Of a stretch of DNA of 49,193 nucleotides, positions 12,066-49,193 are shown piece after piece. The notes under the pieces are model-generated. The model was not told the DNA's origin and searched no databases. It saw only the letters and a list, made by a program, of their open reading frames with translations. The stretch is from a virus (taxonomy: Duplodnaviria; Heunggongvirae; Uroviricota; Caudoviricetes), in the IMG/VR virus record IMGVR_UViG_3300045988_148039, one strand, 5' to 3'. The stretch's first letter is position 1. Every line of letters begins with the position of its first letter. A program made the translations under genes and the position numbers.

Positions 12066-12141
12066 TGGTGGCCCCTACCGGATTTGAACCGATGACCGTG
12101 CGATTATGAGTCGCCTGCTCTAACCACTAAGCTAAGGGGCC
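12066..12141 (-). tRNA. tRNA, anticodon CAT (Met, or lysidine-modified minor Ile2 given resemblance to E. coli ileX as I recall it)
   Basis: Reverse complement folds as a cloverleaf: 7-bp acceptor stem GGCCCCT/AGGGGCC, T-arm with TTCAAAT loop, anticodon loop CTCATAA, encoded 3' CCA. Confidence 0.8.
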
Positions 12142-20770: not shown

Positions 20771-20888
20771 ACCACGATATGTGGTATTAAAACCACATAT
20801 CGTGAGTTTTTCAATGGGCGAAACAAAAAATAACCTTCTATTTGTGGTCCACCTCTCGTCTTACCATGTGAAAACCACTAAATGTGGT
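20771..20888. promoter_or_regulatory. Immunity operator region with ACCAC-N5-GTGGT palindromes
   Basis: ACCACGATATGTGGT (20771..20785), a 13-bp perfect inverted repeat CACGATATGTGGT/ACCACATATCGTG with 6-bp spacer (20773..20804), and ACCACTAAATGTGGT (20874..20888). Confidence 0.6.
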
Positions 20889-20925: not shown

Positions 20926-21582
20926 ATGAAAAGCAACGACGAGAACATCAAGAAAGAAATAGGTCTGCGCATTCAGACTCTACGGAAACAATCCGGCATG
21001 ACTGCCGGAGATCTCCAGCAAGTCACTGGAATAGGCTTAAGCACCTTGCAGAACTATGAGGCCGGATTAAGACAACCATCTATACCTGCCATCAAGAAAA
21101 TCGCGCACGCCCTGAAAGCATCAGCGCCTTATATCGCGTGCTTAACAGATAACCCGTTCCTACCCCAGAATACTAACGCTCCTGTTATTCCTGGGCTTGT
21201 AGCTATAAAAAATGACATAGCATCGCACGCCGGAGAAAAGCCAGTGCTGGCGATAGAACAGGAGATTCTACGAAGCAAGAACATCAACCCATCGTCTCTG
21301 TCAGTTCTCCAGAGCAACGATGAGTTAATGTCACCAACAATATCCCCTGGCTCCCAAGTCCTGATTAATACAGACGATACAGAGATTCATGAGGGGATCT
21401 ATGCCCTTGAAGACAGAAATGGCCTGGTTGTTTTGAGGCACTGTAGAGTCATACCGGGTGACAATGCTGTTATGCTGTCAACCGAAAGGGATGCTGAAAT
21501 GAACACTAAGCATCTGAATAACGAGGAATTTAAGCGTTATAAAGTTCTTGGCCGCGTAGTTAGTGTTGTCAACTGGTTATGA
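20926..21582 (+). CDS. cI-like repressor (N-terminal XRE HTH, C-terminal LexA/S24-like autocleavage domain)
   Basis: 218 aa; HTH segment GMTAGDLQQVTGIGLSTLQNYEAG; S24-like C-terminal region with candidate Ser (ELMSPT) and Lys (KRYKVLGRV). Confidence 0.75.
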   Translation: MKSNDENIKKEIGLRIQTLRKQSGMTAGDLQQVTGIGLSTLQNYEAGLRQPSIPAIKKIAHALKASAPYIACLTDNPFLPQNTNAPVIPGLVAIKNDIASHAGEKPVLAIEQEILRSKNINPSSLSVLQSNDELMSPTISPGSQVLINTDDTEIHEGIYALEDRNGLVVLRHCRVIPGDNAVMLSTERDAEMNTKHLNNEEFKRYKVLGRVVSVVNWL

Positions 21583-22184: not shown

Positions 22185-22853
22185 ATGGAGTCTCGACAAA
22201 TGACTATCTCTGTAGGTATTTTCAACGGAAAAGGCGGCGTAACCAAATCAACAATTGCCCGTGCTTTAGCAGTTGCTTATGCAAAGGCCGGCTGGAATGT
22301 ATGCCTGATCGATATGGATGTGCTTAACGGAACGGTAACGCGTTGGGTACAACGCAGAATGGCCAACAATATCGAACCTGCAATCGCGGCGCAGCCGTGC
22401 GGCACGCCATCACAAGTCCAGAAAATCATCGAATCAGAAGTATACGACCTGGTTATCGTCGATGGCGGTGCCTACGCATCTGAATCAGTACCGAAGCTCT
22501 CTGAATTTCTGGATATGGTTATTTTGCCAACCAGATTCTCTACCGATGACCTGGAAACCACCGTTAACACAGCTCATGGCATCGTTAAAAAGGGTGTGCC
22601 AATCAAGAAAATTTGCATGGTGTTCTCAGGCGCGGCTGAAAACGAAGCCGACTACATTGAAGCCCAAGAGTACCTGGCTAATACGCCATACTTTGTTGTC
22701 GATAAGTACATTCCCCACAAGCCAGCTCTGAGCAAAGCTCAGGATAAGGGCTTAAGCCTCATTGAATGCTCATACGTTGCGCCACGCAAAAAGGCAGACG
22801 ACGTTATTCAGGGGATTATCAACCAGCTTGAGGCTCTGACTACTGCCGCGTAA
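22185..22853 (+). CDS. ParA/ParF-type partition ATPase
   Basis: 222 aa with deviant Walker A NGKGGVTKST. Confidence 0.75.
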   Translation: MESRQMTISVGIFNGKGGVTKSTIARALAVAYAKAGWNVCLIDMDVLNGTVTRWVQRRMANNIEPAIAAQPCGTPSQVQKIIESEVYDLVIVDGGAYASESVPKLSEFLDMVILPTRFSTDDLETTVNTAHGIVKKGVPIKKICMVFSGAAENEADYIEAQEYLANTPYFVVDKYIPHKPALSKAQDKGLSLIECSYVAPRKKADDVIQGIINQLEALTTAA

Positions 22854-23366: not shown

Positions 23367-23389
23367 TAAAAAAGGCCCCCGAAGGGGCC
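23367..23389 (-). terminator. Rho-independent terminator (GGCCCC-GAA-GGGGCC with run of T on the minus strand)
   Basis: Perfect GC hairpin preceded on the plus strand by AAAAAAA; read directly. Confidence 0.6.
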
Positions 23390-23395
23390 TAATCG

Positions 23396-23518
23396 CTACT
23401 TGCTGCTAATGTTTATCGTCACATTCAGAGCGTTATCAGTAATCTTCCAACCCTCCCCATGTGGCGTAAACAAAGCTCCAGTAACAACGATAAAAATACA
23501 CATACAGTATTTTTTCAT
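23396..23518 (-). CDS. Small hydrophobic peptide (about 40 aa)
   Basis: Internal ATG at 23518 gives MKKYCMCIFIVVTGALFTPHGEGWKITDNALNVTINISSK; terminator immediately downstream. Confidence 0.3.
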   Translation of the reverse strand: MKKYCMCIFIVVTGALFTPHGEGWKITDNALNVTINISSK

Positions 23519-23916
23519 TGTATGGCCCTTACAGGCCGTTTCACGGCATCCCCACCGACGAAAACAACGCGAGAGCAAGCACGGCTGCTTGTGCTTGCAT
23601 GTACGGCAACGGAGAATCCTCCCCTAAAGTCGGTGCCCGGGTGCGAATCGGCGGGAAGGTCCACAGGTATTTTACGATTATTTTAAGATTAGTAATAGGA
23701 AAGAAATTAAACGAAAAAACTCGTTTATTTTCACAAAATCAGTAACCTACCCACAATCTGTGAGTTTGCAGGCACAACAAGAACCACAATTTTTTGAAGC
23801 ATAATAGTGGACTATTATTACCTTTTGGGTAAAATTAACTTGCTGCTTGTGCTTGCGTGGTTGTTTATACAACAACGTAATGCTGAAAGGACCGCGAATC
23901 CGATCAGCACGAAAGA

Positions 23917-23943
23917 ACCGTCCTCAATAGGGCGGTTTTTTTG
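23917..23943 (+). terminator. Rho-independent terminator-like hairpin (ACCGTCCT-caat-AGGGCGGT then T7)
   Basis: Read directly in an ORF-poor region upstream of the antirepressor. Confidence 0.45.
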
Positions 23944-24034
23944 TTTCTGCCTACCAATAAACCCACGCTATGTGGTTGTCTCTGTTAAAATCCCGCCGTA
24001 TTGACATGAATGCGCCATTGGTGGACACTTTCCG

Positions 24035-24110
24035 AGCCGTAGCAAAATCTACGGTCGGGATTAGCCTCCTGAATAACACGATGGCGCATACCGCGTTAGC
24101 GGTTTTTTTA
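24035..24110 (+). ncRNA. Candidate small antisense RNA (immI/C4-like position upstream of the antirepressor)
   Basis: TTGACA at 24001..24006; about 75 nt with hairpin CCGTAG-caaaatc-TACGG and a 3' hairpin plus T-run at 24090..24109; GATTAGCCTC at 24058 recurs at 24224 next to the following ORF. Confidence 0.3.
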
Positions 24111-24235
24111 TGCGTAGAGCACTGTTACGCCCAAATTATGGTGGGTCGTACAGGGGCGGAGAAATCCGCGCCGGTTCGTCATTGTGTCCGGTAAGGCTAA
24201 CCCTGTACGGCTCACCACCATTTGATTAGCCTCGA

Positions 24236-24463
24236 ATGGCGGTGATAGTTCCATATACTGGAGATATCACAATGACAAACCTACCCCATGACTATTACGT
24301 CAACCTCGTAAAGATCCTTCTCAAGAAAGCCTCATACGCCGATAAATTCCGCCTGGCTGAAATCATCGAGCGCGAAGCTATGCGCATCGCCAGCAACGAT
24401 AACGCTGTTTCTGACGCAAAAATCTCCCTCGTAACCAAAGTAGTTATGGGAGGTGCAAAATGA
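24236..24463 (+). CDS. Small protein upstream of and overlapping the antirepressor start
   Basis: 75-aa ORF; stop overlaps the antirepressor ATG. Confidence 0.35.
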   Translation: MAVIVPYTGDITMTNLPHDYYVNLVKILLKKASYADKFRLAEIIEREAMRIASNDNAVSDAKISLVTKVVMGGAK

Positions 24464-25611
24464 AAACGCTTCGGACCGTTAACACCCTACAGCCTATCCT
24501 GCATAATCAGATTCCAGTAATCACAACTGAGCTACTCGCCCGCCTTTATGGAACAGAAGCAATCCGTATACAGCAAAATCACCATGAAAATAAAACTCGG
24601 TTCATTGAGGGGAAGCACTTCTTTAAAGCTGTTGGTGATGAACTCAAAAATTTGCGACTAGTTTTAAACGAGTCACAAAATGAGGTACAAATTTCCCCCA
24701 AAACTCGCTCTCTCATCCTCTGGACAGAACGTGGGGCTGCACGTCACGCTAAAATGCTCGAAACCGATCAGGCGTGGGATGTGTTCGAACGTCTGGAAGA
24801 CTGCTATTTCAGCCAGAACGCGCAAACGGCCGCGACCGTAACCGTCTCACCAAACAATGCTCGTGAGGTTGTCGATACGCTCAACGCCAAACCAATGTAT
24901 TACGTTAAGGTGTGCAACAACGAGCCACTCACAACCTCAGCCGATGTTGCCCAAGCATTCAGCACCACAAACAATTCCATCGTTATGGCCATCGATGCGT
25001 TACGCATTCCTCGCACGGCTGCGGCGCGTCACTTCTTTAAAGAACAACGACCGCTGGAAGGAAGCGACCGCGAAATAACAATCTATCGCATGACAAAAGA
25101 CGGATTTACCTTGCTCATGGAGAGTATCGACGGTCCAGGCGTGAAAGATATCAAGCTGGCCTACATTGAAGCCTTTAACGCTATCAGCAGCGTGTTAAAA
25201 ACACAGTACGAGCGTGATCTGGCTAAACGACTGTACCAGGAAAAAACGATTATCCGCGCGGCAACAGAGCATAATCGGCTATTAACGGAACCGAACTACA
25301 GGAAGGAACTAATAAAGGAGTTTGACAAGGCAACAGGGAAAACCAAAGCGGCGCTAAATCTGCCAGCAATGACTCAGGAAAATGTGATATCAGCCTTACT
25401 TCTTGATCTGCTCAGAAACGCCAGAGCACTTATCAGCTTTGACGAAAATCTGAACCCTCAGCTCAAACTACTACCACCGACAGGCAAAGTAGTCGACCAA
25501 GCTGATCACAACAGCATACTCAGCGTACTGGATGCAAACCTGCCAGCCAAGACACTACAGGAACTGATAAAAATATCTGCGGATAAACTGGCCGCAGGTG
25601 CAAAACCATAA
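24460..25611 (+). CDS. Antirepressor-like protein
   Basis: 383 aa; domain assignment (KilA-N/ORF6N-like N-terminus, Rha-like middle) is from memory of those families. Confidence 0.6.
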   Translation: MKTLRTVNTLQPILHNQIPVITTELLARLYGTEAIRIQQNHHENKTRFIEGKHFFKAVGDELKNLRLVLNESQNEVQISPKTRSLILWTERGAARHAKMLETDQAWDVFERLEDCYFSQNAQTAATVTVSPNNAREVVDTLNAKPMYYVKVCNNEPLTTSADVAQAFSTTNNSIVMAIDALRIPRTAAARHFFKEQRPLEGSDREITIYRMTKDGFTLLMESIDGPGVKDIKLAYIEAFNAISSVLKTQYERDLAKRLYQEKTIIRAATEHNRLLTEPNYRKELIKEFDKATGKTKAALNLPAMTQENVISALLLDLLRNARALISFDENLNPQLKLLPPTGKVVDQADHNSILSVLDANLPAKTLQELIKISADKLAAGAKP

Positions 25612-25645
25612 AACAAAGCGCCCGATTTGGGCGCTTCTTCAATTC

Positions 25646-27796: not shown

Positions 27797-28096
27797 TCAG
27801 ATGTTAAACGCTATTCGTTTTCCTGTGGGAAGCTCAACATCCAGGCTTAATTTGCCTCCCATAGATTCAACGTAACGCTTTAATGTCGCCAGCTTTAAAT
27901 CATTTCCGCGCTGCTCCAGCTTTGTTACTGCTGGCTGGCTTATACCCATCGCCTCAGCAACCTGTTTTTGTGATAACTGGAGTTCTTCACGCATCATCTG
28001 CAAGCCGACCTCAAGAATCATCTCATCTGCCATTTCTTTAATTCGCGCCTGGCTTTCAGGTGAACGGCTGGCAATCGCCTCATCTAATGTTCTCAT
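27797..28096 (-). CDS. HigA-like HTH antitoxin
   Basis: 99-aa HTH protein immediately downstream of the toxin-like gene. Confidence 0.6.
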   Translation of the reverse strand: MRTLDEAIASRSPESQARIKEMADEMILEVGLQMMREELQLSQKQVAEAMGISQPAVTKLEQRGNDLKLATLKRYVESMGGKLSLDVELPTGKRIAFNI

Positions 28097-28449
28097 TACT
28101 TGCTCTCCAGTGTGTTCAGATGTGCTGCAAACTCATCCTCAGCTATACGCACCAGTTTTTCATAAAACCGTTTATCGTTACTTTTGTCTCCTGCACAAAG
28201 AACGATGGCCCGGCGAATCGGATCGAACGCATAAAAGGCTCTTATCGGACGGCCAGAAAACTGAACGCGAAGCTCTTTCATATTTTTGTACCGAGAACCT
28301 TTTACGGTATCGGCATATGGCCTGGGTAACTCAGGTCCGTAAACCTGTAGCTTTTTCAAATCAGCCAAAACCTTTTCCTGAAGAGCGTCTTCTTGCTCAT
28401 TTAGCCAGTCGTCAAATCGCTGGCTAAAAAGTACCGTCCACATGCTCAA
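28096..28449 (-). CDS. HigB/RelE-family toxin-like protein
   Basis: 117 aa; toxin-upstream order as in HigBA; stop overlaps the antitoxin start. Confidence 0.6.
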   Translation of the reverse strand: MSMWTVLFSQRFDDWLNEQEDALQEKVLADLKKLQVYGPELPRPYADTVKGSRYKNMKELRVQFSGRPIRAFYAFDPIRRAIVLCAGDKSNDKRFYEKLVRIAEDEFAAHLNTLESK

Positions 28450-48276: not shown

Positions 48277-48660
48277 TTATGCAGATGGATTTTGTTGTGC
48301 GGTATTAAGGAATATTCCAACCTTCCGGCAAGCCAGATATACATCGGCAACCTTTGCTGATTCAGGAAGGATAACCGCACGTGCATTGAACATTCCGGTC
48401 AACCATGCTGTTCCTACTTGCGCTGAATCAGTCGCATCAATACTGTGTTGAGCAATACAATACGGTTCTTTTGCCACTCCCTCTCCAGAGAGATTTATCG
48501 GAGCCACAGTGACAACATTTGTTGTCTGATCAATACTGACAAAAGCAAGTAACTCACCTCGTTTTACTTTACCGCTGGCAAGTTTAATACTTGTTGAAAT
48601 TGCTGGCATACCACCAGAAATAATCAGATTATCTGGTTCAAATGAAAAAGACTCTCGCAT
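48277..48660 (-). CDS. Head decoration protein (gpD-like)
   Basis: 127-aa ORF between protease/scaffold and major capsid genes. Confidence 0.55.
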   Translation of the reverse strand: MRESFSFEPDNLIISGGMPAISTSIKLASGKVKRGELLAFVSIDQTTNVVTVAPINLSGEGVAKEPYCIAQHSIDATDSAQVGTAWLTGMFNARAVILPESAKVADVYLACRKVGIFLNTAQQNPSA

Positions 48661-48669
48661 AAACTCACC

Positions 48670-49193
48670 TTAATTTTTATCGCGGTTTTTAAATACTGAT
48701 CCAATAACATTTTTTACTGCTTCAGCTTGTTTATCGCCGTTGTTTTCTGGTTGATTAACATCAACTGAATCATTCACCTCATTTGCGTCTTCTTGACGTT
48801 GATTAAGAAAGTTTTTGTTACGCGCTCGCTCTGCATTCATAATTTCCAAAGCAAGTTCAGCAGCAGAAACACCCGTTTTGAATTTTGCATTCTTAACTAG
48901 GTCGTCATGACCTGGAATCACGCTATTCTCGATTGTCTCAATGCGCTCGCGCTCTGATTTAACGCCCTCGTCTTTACCAGCATTAAAAACCTGATTGTAT
49001 AATTCTGGATGTTTATTCTTTAATTCATCAAGAGTCACAACATCGTCCTCATTTTGTTCATTTAATTCAGTAGATAATTCATTTTTATTTTGTGGCAACT
49101 TTGCGAGCGAATCAGGTAATTTTGAAAACCTTGATGCTTCAAAAGTTATTCCATTGAGCGAAAGCATCCCTTCCTTTATGGAAGCAGATAGCC
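48670..49193 (-). CDS. Head protease/scaffold, C-terminal part of the junction-spanning gene
   Basis: Same frame as the 1..618 fragment through the 77-bp duplication; charged C-terminal half typical of a scaffold region. Confidence 0.65.
   Translation of the reverse strand, partial: LSASIKEGMLSLNGITFEASRFSKLPDSLAKLPQNKNELSTELNEQNEDDVVTLDELKNKHPELYNQVFNAGKDEGVKSERERIETIENSVIPGHDDLVKNAKFKTGVSAAELALEIMNAERARNKNFLNQRQEDANEVNDSVDVNQPENNGDKQAEAVKNVIGSVFKNRDKN
49117..49193. repeat. Terminal direct duplication (copy of 1..77)
   Basis: Exact identity with the window start. Confidence 0.9.

What the first reader, a model, noticed from the sequence alone, without database searches (positions are those of the whole stretch)
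23900..25611. Second immunity-like module: candidate antisense RNA, small ORF, antirepressor
Upstream of the antirepressor-like gene there is an ORF-poor stretch with a TTGACA element, a ~75-nt segment with two hairpins ending in a T-run, and a 10-nt sequence GATTAGCCTC repeated at 24058 and 24224 next to the start of a small ORF whose stop overlaps the antirepressor ATG. This recalls the antisense-RNA control of ant in P1 (c4-icd-ant) and P22 (sar). Together with the separate cI/Cro region it suggests two immunity circuits.
Basis: inference. Interest (0 to 1): 0.7.

Follow-up and report, generated by a model that had tools for sequence, protein, structure and literature searches.

The report
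C4 antisense RNA antirepressor control module
This part of a 49-kb phage-plasmid carries a known kind of RNA switch, first described in phage P1 and in the Salmonella prophage Gifsy-1, that keeps an antirepressor gene silent.

Summary
Rfam places a C4 antisense RNA at 24134..24222 (70.8 bits, threshold 45) and an IsrK-type RNA at 24036..24109 (65.7 bits, threshold 50).

The layout matches the phage P1 immI operon piece for piece:
- promoter;
- leader carrying target copies a1 and b1, ending in a terminator;
- C4 RNA;
- target sites a2 and b2;
- a 63-codon ORF;
- the antirepressor gene, joined to the ORF by an ATGA stop/start overlap.

A second pair, b1/b2, matches the loop of C4 hairpin 2, and b2 covers the ORF's start codon.

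It is the IsrK-like leader, and C4 is the next element downstream.

Across 82 distinct related modules, C4 and its target sites change together. There are 15 a-types; own match is 81/82, cross-type match 0/5716.

The 63-aa ORF is not Icd. The antirepressor resembles Gifsy-1 AnrP, not P1 Ant. An operator-like palindrome shared with the cI/Cro-like region lies just upstream, which supports two linked immunity circuits.

Verdict: new member of a known kind, of modest interest.

The parts
23963..23975 (.). Operator-like palindrome CCACGCTATGTGG, a candidate binding site for the element's main repressor
   Evidence: The motif CCAC-N5-GTGG occurs 6 times in the window against 0.22 expected. Two copies lie in the cI/Cro-like intergenic region (20772, 20875). 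This copy is conserved at -171 from C4 in four relatives, even where the upstream flank differs.
23983..23991 (+). Candidate extended -10 promoter TGtTAAAAT (upstream promoter 'Pa'). Its -35 region would be covered by the palindrome.
   Evidence: Read from the sequence and conserved in relatives. It parallels P1 P51a, which has TGcTATCTT next to operator Oc4. This is inference only.
24001..24029 (+). Sigma-70 promoter 'Pb': TTGACA, 17 nt, GACACT. The predicted transcription start is about 24036.
   Evidence: Sequence. It occupies the same position as Gifsy-1 PisrK (TTGACA-17-TATATT) and P1 P51b. The -10 is weak and was not listed by the scan.
24036..24109 (+). IsrK-type leader / short sRNA. 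It consists of hairpin 1, hairpin 2 presenting a1 in its loop, a linker with b1, and an intrinsic terminator.
   Evidence: Rfam isrK gives 65.7 bits against a gathering score of 50. c4-a1b1 overlaps it at 24023..24075 with 35.7 bits, below its gathering score of 46.7. Fold, terminator.
24061..24067 (+). a1: TTAGCCT, the core of the first GATTAGCCTC copy, complementary to a' of C4
24076..24086 (+). b1: ACACGATGGCG, pairs with the C4 hairpin-2 loop over 11 bp including 2 G-U pairs
24090..24109 (+). Intrinsic terminator of the leader: ACCGC-GTTA-GCGGT followed by T7
   Evidence: The predicted probability that the stem forms is 0.96.
24134..24222 (+). C4 antisense RNA gene. The predicted mature RNA is about 24140..24219, by homology with the annotated ends of P1 C4.
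   Evidence: Rfam C4 gives 70.8 bits against 45. MFE is -46.6 kcal/mol with z = -6.35. The consensus structure is 99% paired, with 10 pairs showing compensatory change and 0 of 500 shuffles as good.
24178..24186 (+). b': GTCATTGTG in the 13-nt loop of C4 hairpin 2
24194..24200 (+). a': AGGCTAA in the unpaired junction of C4, the 7 nt immediately 5' of the closing strand
24224..24233 (+). a2: second GATTAGCCTC copy (core TTAGCCT, 24226..24232), 2 nt after the C4 match
24242..24270 (+). Hairpin that sequesters the Shine-Dalgarno GGAG (24260..24263) of the 63-codon ORF
   Evidence: An equivalent hairpin with a different sequence is predicted in three sister variants.
24268..24276 (+). b2: CACAATGAC, complementary to b', covering the start codon ATG 24272..24274
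24272..24463 (+). 63-aa leader ORF in the position of P1 icd. Its stop overlaps the ant start (ATGA).
   Evidence: phrog_7886 matches over the full length. It is not Icd. The protein is nearly invariant in relatives while the RNA sites upstream vary.
24460..25611 (+). Antirepressor-like gene, 383 aa, with an ORF6N domain followed by a Phage_pRha domain
   Evidence: The N-terminal 156 aa are 53% identical to Gifsy-1 AnrP. There is no similarity to P1 Ant1.
25615..25637 (.). G+C-rich hairpin at the end of the operon, shared with the convergent gene
   Evidence: It was listed for the minus strand; the + strand reading has only a weak T-run.

Best explanation
Region 23960..25640 is a P1-immI-type secondary immunity operon. 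It is the same module that has been studied as isrK-orf45-anrP in Salmonella Gifsy-1.

Steps, with their basis:

1. Transcription starts near 24036 from TTGACA-17-GACACT. A second, upstream extended -10 promoter may also fire; an operator-like palindrome lies over its -35 region. (Inferred.)
2. Most transcripts should stop at the leader terminator (24090..24109). This gives a ~74-nt IsrK-like RNA that displays a1 in a hairpin loop and b1 in a linker. (Family membership shown; termination inferred.)
3. Read-through transcripts contain the C4 RNA. It is probably cut out at G24140 by RNase P and ends at ...ACC(A), about 24219. (Inferred by homology with P1.)
4. C4 pairs through its unpaired junction a' (AGGCUAA) with a2 (24226..24232). 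It pairs through the loop b' (GUCAUUGUG) with b2 (24268..24276). The b2 site covers the AUG of the 63-codon ORF, whose Shine-Dalgarno is already held in a hairpin. (Complementarity and co-variation shown; repression inferred.)
5. This blocks translation of the leader ORF. Through the ATGA overlap, and probably through Rho-dependent polarity as in P1, it also blocks production of the antirepressor. (Inferred.)
6. The a1/b1 copies in the leader or short RNA compete for C4. A surplus of leader RNA therefore titrates C4 and turns the antirepressor on. (Shown for IsrK in Gifsy-1; inferred here.)
7. The antirepressor then inactivates the element's main repressor. (Inferred from family.)
8. The a and b sequences act as an address code that sets immunity specificity. 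(Co-variation shown; function inferred.)
For: - Rfam gathering-level hits for C4 and isrK lie side by side.
- The C4 fold has z = -6.35, with a' and b' unpaired.
- The consensus structure over 31 diverse homologues is 99% paired, 10 pairs have compensatory change, and 0 of 500 shuffles are as good.
- The part order is the same as in the annotated P1 record.
- The Gifsy-1 type locus itself scores isrK 79.3, c4-a1b1 48.1 and C4 69.0 bits. The P1 leader matches the isrK model end to end at 35.1 bits, E = 1e-5.
- Three-way co-variation holds across 82 distinct modules. I defined a' purely by structure, as the 7 nt 5' of the closing strand. Its exact reverse complement lies within 22 nt after C4 in 81/82 modules and in the leader in 81/82. 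Across different types the figures are 0/5716 and 2/5716. There are 15 a-types, 32 b-types and 44 combinations.
- The same phage-plasmid backbone carries four a/b combinations while the 63-aa protein stays almost invariant.
- In Gifsy-1, the validated pairs G28:C162 and G31:C159 (PMC4825925) map by my coordinate conversion onto a1:a'. IsrK supplied in trans raised anrP translation about 140-fold and induced the prophage, and translational coupling through the upstream ORF was shown.
- The 10-mer repeat is non-random.
Against: - There are no expression data for this element.
- The -10 hexamer is weak and was not picked up by the scan.
- The individual duplexes are short (7-11 bp). Their energies (-9 to -15 kcal/mol) are not exceptional against random 80-nt windows, so the case rests on position and co-variation.
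- c4-a1b1 scores below its gathering threshold here.
- The leader ORF is not Icd and the antirepressor is not P1 Ant. The coupling and polarity steps are therefore carried over by analogy.
- The Gifsy-1 authors explain their data by alternative mRNA structures rather than by a C4 repressor.
- Two of their results do not fit a simple decoy model. An a1 mutation (G28A) raised basal expression, and co-expressing STnc1160 made IsrK toxicity worse.
- The antirepressor's target is not identified.
Confidence: 0.8

Rival explanations
1. C4 acts mainly on transcription rather than translation, as the related CI RNA of P4 and CA RNA of N15 do. Pairing of C4 with a1/b1 in the nascent leader, or with a2/b2, would promote premature termination. 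The leader terminator would then be the controlled step.
For: A strong intrinsic terminator sits right after b1 in every module examined. In Gifsy-1, IsrK supplied in trans raised read-through 8-fold, and the authors themselves raised a CI-like role for STnc1160. In 33 of 82 modules, blocking b1 in silico raised the predicted terminator probability.
Against: In this window the terminator forms equally well with b1 free or blocked (0.96 against 0.97). The family-wide effect is mixed, with 8 modules going the other way. The b2 site lies exactly on the start codon, which points to a block of initiation. The translational effect in Gifsy-1 (140-fold) far exceeded the transcriptional one (8-fold). 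The two modes are not mutually exclusive.
Confidence: 0.25
2. The published Gifsy-1 model applies as it stands. The 24036..24109 RNA is the regulator, acting in trans as an activator that remodels an inactive mRNA fold. The 24134..24222 segment is only a structured, partly coding part of that mRNA and not a separate repressor RNA.
For: There is direct genetics and structure probing in Gifsy-1. The leader here passes the isrK gathering score.
Against: The segment passes the C4 model with a tRNA-like closing stem and an ACCA tail. A stable ~80-nt processed species, STnc1160, exists in Salmonella. The "orf45" reading frame is not conserved at the protein level according to the authors, and no equivalent ORF is conserved here. 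In P1, C4 is annotated as a trans-acting repressor RNA.
Confidence: 0.12
3. A P22 sar-like arrangement: a cis-antisense RNA read from the minus strand across the start of the small ORF or of ant.
Against: The scan found no minus-strand promoter or terminator between 24000 and 24500. All conserved structure and complementarity is on the + strand.
Confidence: 0.02
4. The module is an inactive remnant carried along by the plasmid.
For: The -10 hexamer is weak, and RefSeq annotation of a sister plasmid calls the ORF6N part a pseudogene.
Against: All sites are intact and mutually complementary, and the ORFs are open (63 and 383 aa). The same backbone keeps four matched a/b sets, which requires selection for pairing.
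Confidence: 0.04

Closest known systems
Phage P1/P7 immI operon (Op51, P51a/P51b, a1, b1, c4, a2, b2, icd, ant1/ant2)
   Same: The order and spacing of all RNA parts are the same. The C4 RNA belongs to the same Rfam family. a' lies in the junction and b' in the hairpin-2 loop. a2 starts 2-4 nt after C4. A small ORF overlaps the antirepressor gene by ATGA. A repressor operator with two tandem promoters lies upstream; this last point is inferred here.
   Different: The leader ORF is not Icd: there is no NF033153 hit and no BLAST match. The antirepressor is unrelated to Ant1. b2 covers the start codon rather than the Shine-Dalgarno sequence. The a/b sequences are different. The host element is an unrelated 49-kb phage-plasmid.
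Salmonella Gifsy-1 isrK-orf45(STnc1160)-anrP locus (PMC4825925)
   Same: The leader passes the isrK model. C4 follows it in both loci. The antirepressor N-terminus is 53% identical to AnrP. A terminator sits in the leader, and there is translational coupling from an upstream ORF.
   Different: In Gifsy-1 the antirepressor gene follows C4 directly, and the proposed "orf45" overlies C4. Here a separate, conserved 63-aa ORF is inserted and the antirepressor carries an added Rha domain. The a-type is also different: UUGGCGU there, UUAGCCU here.
P4 CI RNA and N15 CA RNA (processed immunity RNAs that cause premature termination)
   Same: Each is a small processed RNA flanked by upstream and downstream complementary copies (seqA/seqC in P4, as quoted). 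N15 is also a plasmid prophage with a separate antirepressor operon (my own knowledge: Ravin et al. 1999, Mardanov & Ravin 2007).
   Different: Those RNAs act by transcription termination. Here the main target lies on a start codon.
P22 sar RNA
   Same: It is an RNA that limits antirepressor synthesis.
   Different: sar is a true cis-antisense transcript from the opposite strand. Nothing of that kind is seen here.

Membership tests
Rfam RF01695 C4 antisense RNA | Covariance-model score at or above the gathering threshold (45 bits) | tested here: met
   70.8 bits, E = 7e-12, full model 1-87, at 24134..24222.
Rfam RF01695 C4 antisense RNA | Long closing stem enclosing two hairpins, with an unpaired junction and a large hairpin-2 loop | tested here: met
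   The MFE structure is identical to the model, -46.6 kcal/mol, z = -6.35. The consensus over 31 homologues is 99% paired with 10 compensatory pairs.
Rfam RF01695 C4 antisense RNA | a' and b' complementary to target sites upstream (a1, b1) and downstream (a2, b2) on the same strand | tested here: met
   a':a1 and a':a2 are 7 bp each, b':b2 is 9 bp, and b':b1 is 11 bp with 2 G-U pairs. Family-wide co-variation is 81/82 own against 0-2 in 5716 cross-type.
Rfam RF01695 C4 antisense RNA | Processing from a longer transcript by RNase P to a ~77-nt RNA | not testable with these tools
   Only sequence features can be read: a tRNA-like 7-bp end stem and a 3' ACCA at 24217..24220, aligned with the annotated P1 ends 48343..48419. 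Processing of P1 C4 by RNase P is from my own knowledge (Hartmann et al. 1995).
Rfam RF01394 isrK | Covariance-model score at or above the gathering threshold (50 bits); three hairpins, the last an intrinsic terminator | tested here: met
   65.7 bits, model 1-77, at 24036..24109. Terminator, fold.
Rfam RF01394 isrK | Hfq binding and trans-activation of the downstream antirepressor | not testable with these tools
   Shown only for Gifsy-1 (PMC4825925).
Rfam RF03163 c4-a1b1 | Score at or above the gathering threshold (46.7 bits) | tested here: not met
   35.7 bits, E = 1e-6, at 24023..24075. The P1 and Gifsy-1 loci do pass, at 51.0 and 48.1 bits. The sites themselves are present here.
P1 immI operon | Small ORF between b2 and ant, with its stop overlapping the ant start | tested here: met
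   63-codon ORF at 24272..24463 with an ATGA overlap at 24460..24463. In P1, icd is 48470..48691 and ant1 starts at 48688.
P1 immI operon | The small ORF is Icd (NCBIfam NF033153) | tested here: not met
   No NF033153 hit, whereas P1 Icd as positive control scores 52.6 bits. BLASTP finds no alignment.
P1 immI operon | Antirepressor homologous to Ant1/Ant2 | tested here: not met
   BLASTP best E-value is 7.4. It is instead ORF6N plus pRha, 53% identical to AnrP.
P1 immI operon | Main-repressor operator at the operon promoter (Op51) | tested here: inconclusive
   The palindrome CCAC-N5-GTGG at 23963..23975 shares its motif with the cI/Cro-like control region, occurs 6 times against 0.22 expected, and is conserved in relatives. 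Binding was not tested.
P22 sar-type cis-antisense control | Promoter on the opposite strand giving an RNA antisense to the ant leader | tested here: not met
   There are no minus-strand promoter-like or terminator-like sites in 24000..24500.

The most novel reading that the evidence does not exclude
The Salmonella sRNA IsrK and the a1/b1 leader of the P1 immI operon are the same element. Gifsy-1 "orf45"/STnc1160, and at least some ORFs annotated as "ash family protein", are translations of the C4 RNA gene.

On this reading the whole family is one three-RNA switch: a decoy leader, a processed antisense RNA and an mRNA target. Its two address sites, a and b, reassort independently. That gives a combinatorial immunity code (at least 15 a-types, 32 b-types and 44 combinations) that is swapped even between otherwise near-identical phage-plasmids.

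Rfam still keeps isrK outside the C4 clan, and the IsrK paper does not mention P1 c4.
Probability: 0.55. Interest if true: 0.5.

Novelty: new member of a known kind. Interest (0 to 1): 0.3.

Why it matters
For this element, the result explains a 1.1-kb stretch that RefSeq leaves unannotated in a sister plasmid. It also identifies the likely induction switch of a widespread family of 47-49 kb E. coli, Klebsiella and Yersinia phage-plasmids.

More generally, the comparison joins two bodies of literature that have been kept apart, P1 c4 and Salmonella IsrK. It offers a re-reading of the Gifsy-1 genetics in which the validated helix is a1:a'. It also shows that C4 specificity sites form a modular, exchangeable code that should decide which co-resident or superinfecting relatives are kept silent.

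None of this is a new principle. It extends a known one.

Tried and rejected
1. **C4-controlled anti-terminator in the leader.** The single-sequence fold suggested that b1 overlaps an alternative hairpin. With the terminator properly defined, its predicted probability here is 0.96 with b1 free and 0.97 with b1 blocked. Family-wide the effect is mixed: 33 modules go up and 8 go down. Two earlier scripts for this test were flawed. I left it as inconclusive.
2. **Duplex energies as evidence.** The a and b duplexes are not exceptional against random 80-nt windows, so I did not use energy as an argument.
3. **Icd and P1 Ant homology.** Rejected.
4. **The 75-aa version of the small ORF, from ATG 24236.** Rejected, because that ATG is absent in most sister plasmids and PHROG and PGAP support 63 aa.
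5. **Solved structures.** None found for either protein.
6. **Weak Rfam hits at 23833..23944** (RNAI 26.7 bits, Phe leader 23.1 bits). Both are below threshold and I treated them as chance. That segment is better explained as a TimR-like RNA.
7. **Column-based counting of the a':a2 and b':b2 pairs on a MAFFT alignment.** Abandoned because variable spacing misaligns the sites. I replaced it with a structure-anchored exact-match test with a cross-type control.
8. **Primary P1 papers** PMC312442 and PMC196329 are not held in the library.
Full report
**What the window is.** The 2-kb region matches three 49-kb Yersinia phages (vB_YpM_39/41/44) at about 93% identity. It also matches 256 plasmids, mostly 47-49 kb circular E. 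coli plasmids, with a Klebsiella aerogenes plasmid at 96.5%. The neighbourhood holds a cI-like HTH gene (20926..21582), ParA (22185..22853), a ryfA-type toxin RNA and HigBA-like genes. The window is therefore a phage-plasmid.

**Checking the observation.**
- TTGACA is at 24001..24006, with GACACT 17 nt downstream.
- The ~75-nt structured segment ending in T7 is 24036..24109.
- GATTAGCCTC occurs exactly twice in 49 kb, at 24059 and 24224, against 0.02 expected.
- The small ORF's TGA overlaps the ATG of a 383-aa ORF (ATGA at 24460..24463).
- That 383-aa ORF carries ORF6N and Phage_pRha domains and matches PHROG anti-repressor families.

**What the RNA parts are.** A whole-window Rfam scan at gathering thresholds gives C4 antisense RNA at 24134..24222 (70.8 bits against 45) and isrK at 24036..24109 (65.7 against 50). 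A permissive scan adds c4-a1b1 at 24023..24075 (35.7 bits, below the 46.7 threshold).

The antisense RNA proper is the next element.

C4 folds exactly as the family model does (-46.6 kcal/mol, z = -6.35). A long closing stem encloses two hairpins, with a 13-nt loop on hairpin 2 and an 8-nt unpaired junction. On 31 diverse homologues the structure is 99% paired. Ten pairs show changes on both sides, no shuffle out of 500 does as well, and slid controls reach only about 40% paired. One caveat applies. The homologues were collected with an exact 16-nt pattern in the 5' strand of the closing stem, so that strand cannot vary in this sample.

**The repeat explained.** The junction of C4 reads AGGCUAA (24194..24200), the exact complement of UUAGCCU, which is the core of both GATTAGCCTC copies. 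One copy (a1, 24061..24067) sits in the loop of leader hairpin 2. The other (a2, 24226..24232) starts 2 nt after the C4 match.

A second set exists. The hairpin-2 loop GUCAUUGUG (24178..24186) is complementary to CACAAUGAC (b2, 24268..24276), which contains the start codon ATG 24272. With two G-U pairs it also matches ACACGAUGGCG (b1, 24076..24086) in the leader.

This is the layout annotated in the P1 genome: Oc4 operator, P51a, P51b, a1, b1, c4, a2, b2, icd, ant1, with icd and ant1 overlapping by ATGA.

**Comparative test.** An exact-pattern scan of IMG/VR with the conserved 5' end of C4 returned 120 loci. After I removed four chance matches and added P1, Gifsy-1, the Yersinia phage and the window, 82 distinct modules remained.

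I defined a' purely by structure, as the 7 nt immediately 5' of the closing strand.
- Its exact reverse complement lies within 22 nt downstream of C4 in 81/82 modules.
- It lies in the leader in 81/82 modules.
- Between modules of different type the figures are 0/5716 and 2/5716.

There are 15 a-types, 32 b-types and 44 combinations. The window's type (a' = AGGCUAA) is unique in that sample and is shared by E. coli plasmid p142_C.

Within this one phage-plasmid backbone I found four combinations:
- a = UUAGCCU with b = CACAAUGAC;
- a = UUGGCGU with b = UCAUCAUGA;
- a = UUGGAAC with b = CACAAUGA;
- a = UUGGAAC with b = UCACCAUG.

Meanwhile the promoter, the terminator and the 63-aa protein stay essentially constant. 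Coordinated three-site change of this kind is strong evidence that the pairings are used and that they encode specificity. P1 and P7 differ in the same way; that comparison is my own knowledge (Citron & Schuster 1990).

**Link to Gifsy-1.** The IsrK type locus in Gifsy-1 itself scores isrK 79.3, c4-a1b1 48.1 and C4 69.0 bits in the same order. The P1 leader matches the isrK model end to end at 35.1 bits, E = 1e-5, including a terminator-like hairpin. Rfam lists isrK outside the C4 clan.

The IsrK paper (PMC4825925) does not mention P1 or RNase P. It does report four relevant things:
- an ~80-nt processed species, STnc1160, from "orf45";
- conservation of orf45 at the nucleotide level but not at the protein level;
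- a comparison with P4 CI RNA;
- compensatory pairs G28:C162 and G31:C159.

Converting their numbering to the Gifsy-1 sequence, those pairs fall on a1 (UUGGCGU) and a' (ACGCCAA). In that system IsrK in trans raised anrP translation about 140-fold, raised read-through 8-fold and induced the prophage, and anrP depended on translation of the upstream ORF.

**Proteins.** The small ORF most likely starts at ATG 24272. It has a GGAG 8 nt upstream and matches phrog_7886 over its full 63/63 length. PGAP aa in four sister plasmids, and the ATG at 24236 is not conserved. It is not Icd.

The antirepressor's first 156 residues are 53% identical to Gifsy-1 AnrP, and it has no similarity to P1 Ant1. Across the 82 modules the gene after b2 is most often an antirepressor directly (ORF6N-type or Rha-type, with b2 about 20 nt before the ATG). 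In others it is icd followed by ant (P1 group), or a 76-aa protein. The window's lineage differs in three ways: it has the 63-aa ORF, b2 lies on the start codon itself, and the antirepressor is a fused ORF6N-Rha protein.

The Shine-Dalgarno sequence is also held in a hairpin (24242..24270). Three sister variants have an equivalent predicted hairpin with a different sequence.

**Connection to the primary immunity region.** The palindrome CCAC-N5-GTGG occurs six times in the window against 0.22 expected. Two copies are between the cI-like gene and the divergent genes, one is just after the cI-like gene, and one is at 23963..23975.

That last copy is 12/13 identical to the copy at 20772. It is conserved at the same distance from C4 in four relatives, even where the sequence further upstream is different. 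It would cover the -35 region of a possible extended -10 promoter (TGtTAAAAT, 23983..23991) lying 9 nt upstream of the TTGACA promoter. This resembles the P1 arrangement of Op51/P51a ahead of P51b. The reading is an inference and no binding was tested.

**Mechanism and its limits.**

*Shown:*
- family membership;
- the fold;
- the complementarity and its co-variation;
- the ORF overlap.

*Inferred by homology:*
- the transcription start;
- RNase P processing to about 24140..24219 (the 3' tail reads ACCA);
- translational repression at b2;
- coupling to ant, and possibly Rho polarity;
- decoy action of the leader;
- inactivation of the main repressor by the antirepressor.

*Weak points:*
- The duplexes are short and energetically unremarkable.
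- The -10 hexamer is weak.
- Two Gifsy-1 results do not fit a simple decoy model.
- A termination-based mode of action, as in P4 and N15, cannot be excluded, though my test of it was inconclusive.

**Verdict.** The finding is real and correctly interpreted in outline. It is a new member, with a new address type and a different leader ORF, of the known C4/IsrK antirepressor-control family.

Noticed in passing
window 23368..23943: A ryfA/timP-type type I toxin RNA lies on the minus strand at 23368..23664 (Rfam 142 bits). A candidate TimR-like antitoxin sRNA lies on the plus strand at about 23842..23943. Its features are a promoter-like TGGACT-16-TAAAAT at 23808..23835, an 18-nt stretch (23842..23859) repeating 23584..23601 and therefore complementary to the ryfA RNA, a strong fold (z = -5.3), and a terminator at 23910..23943.
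   Followed up: partly
window 20772, 20875, 21626, 23963, 30924, 35954: The palindrome (A)ACCAC-N5-GTGGT(T) is dispersed over the genome, with 6 copies against 0.22 expected. This looks like a set of scattered operators for one repressor, as with P1 C1.
   Followed up: partly
L124:781-1068 (K. aerogenes plasmid); L003:2598-2739 (Gifsy-1): A PGAP "ash family protein" CDS matches Pfam PF10554 (Phage_ASH) at its N-terminal residues 2-39, which by my coordinate conversion lie where the CDS runs over the 3' half of C4 and a2. Gifsy-1 "orf45" also overlies C4. These protein calls may be translations of the RNA gene.
   Followed up: partly
L129 (E. coli p142_C, RefSeq): PGAP annotates no RNA gene in the 1.1-kb gap holding ryfA, the leader and C4. 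It also splits the antirepressor into an "ORF6N pseudogene" and a "Rha family regulator". In the window the ORF is continuous at 383 aa.
   Followed up: no
window 27797..28449 (-): A HigB/Gp49-like toxin (28096..28449) and an HTH antitoxin (27797..28096) form a type II toxin-antitoxin pair. Together with ParA (22185..22853) and the ryfA system, this fits plasmid maintenance.
   Followed up: no
window 12066..12141 (-): A tRNA-Met gene (anticodon CAT) is carried by the element.
   Followed up: no
window 24151 and 24213 (alignment A1 columns 18 and 85): In the C4 closing stem the window has U:G where 28 of 31 homologues have G:U. This is a both-sides change unique to this variant.
   Followed up: yes
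L001 and L117, upstream of the palindrome: In the Yersinia phage and one IMG/VR relative, the sequence immediately left of the 23963-type palindrome differs from the window's. In the Yersinia phage record a 573-nt minus-strand CDS lies in that stretch. The palindrome therefore marks a recombination boundary of the module.
   Followed up: no
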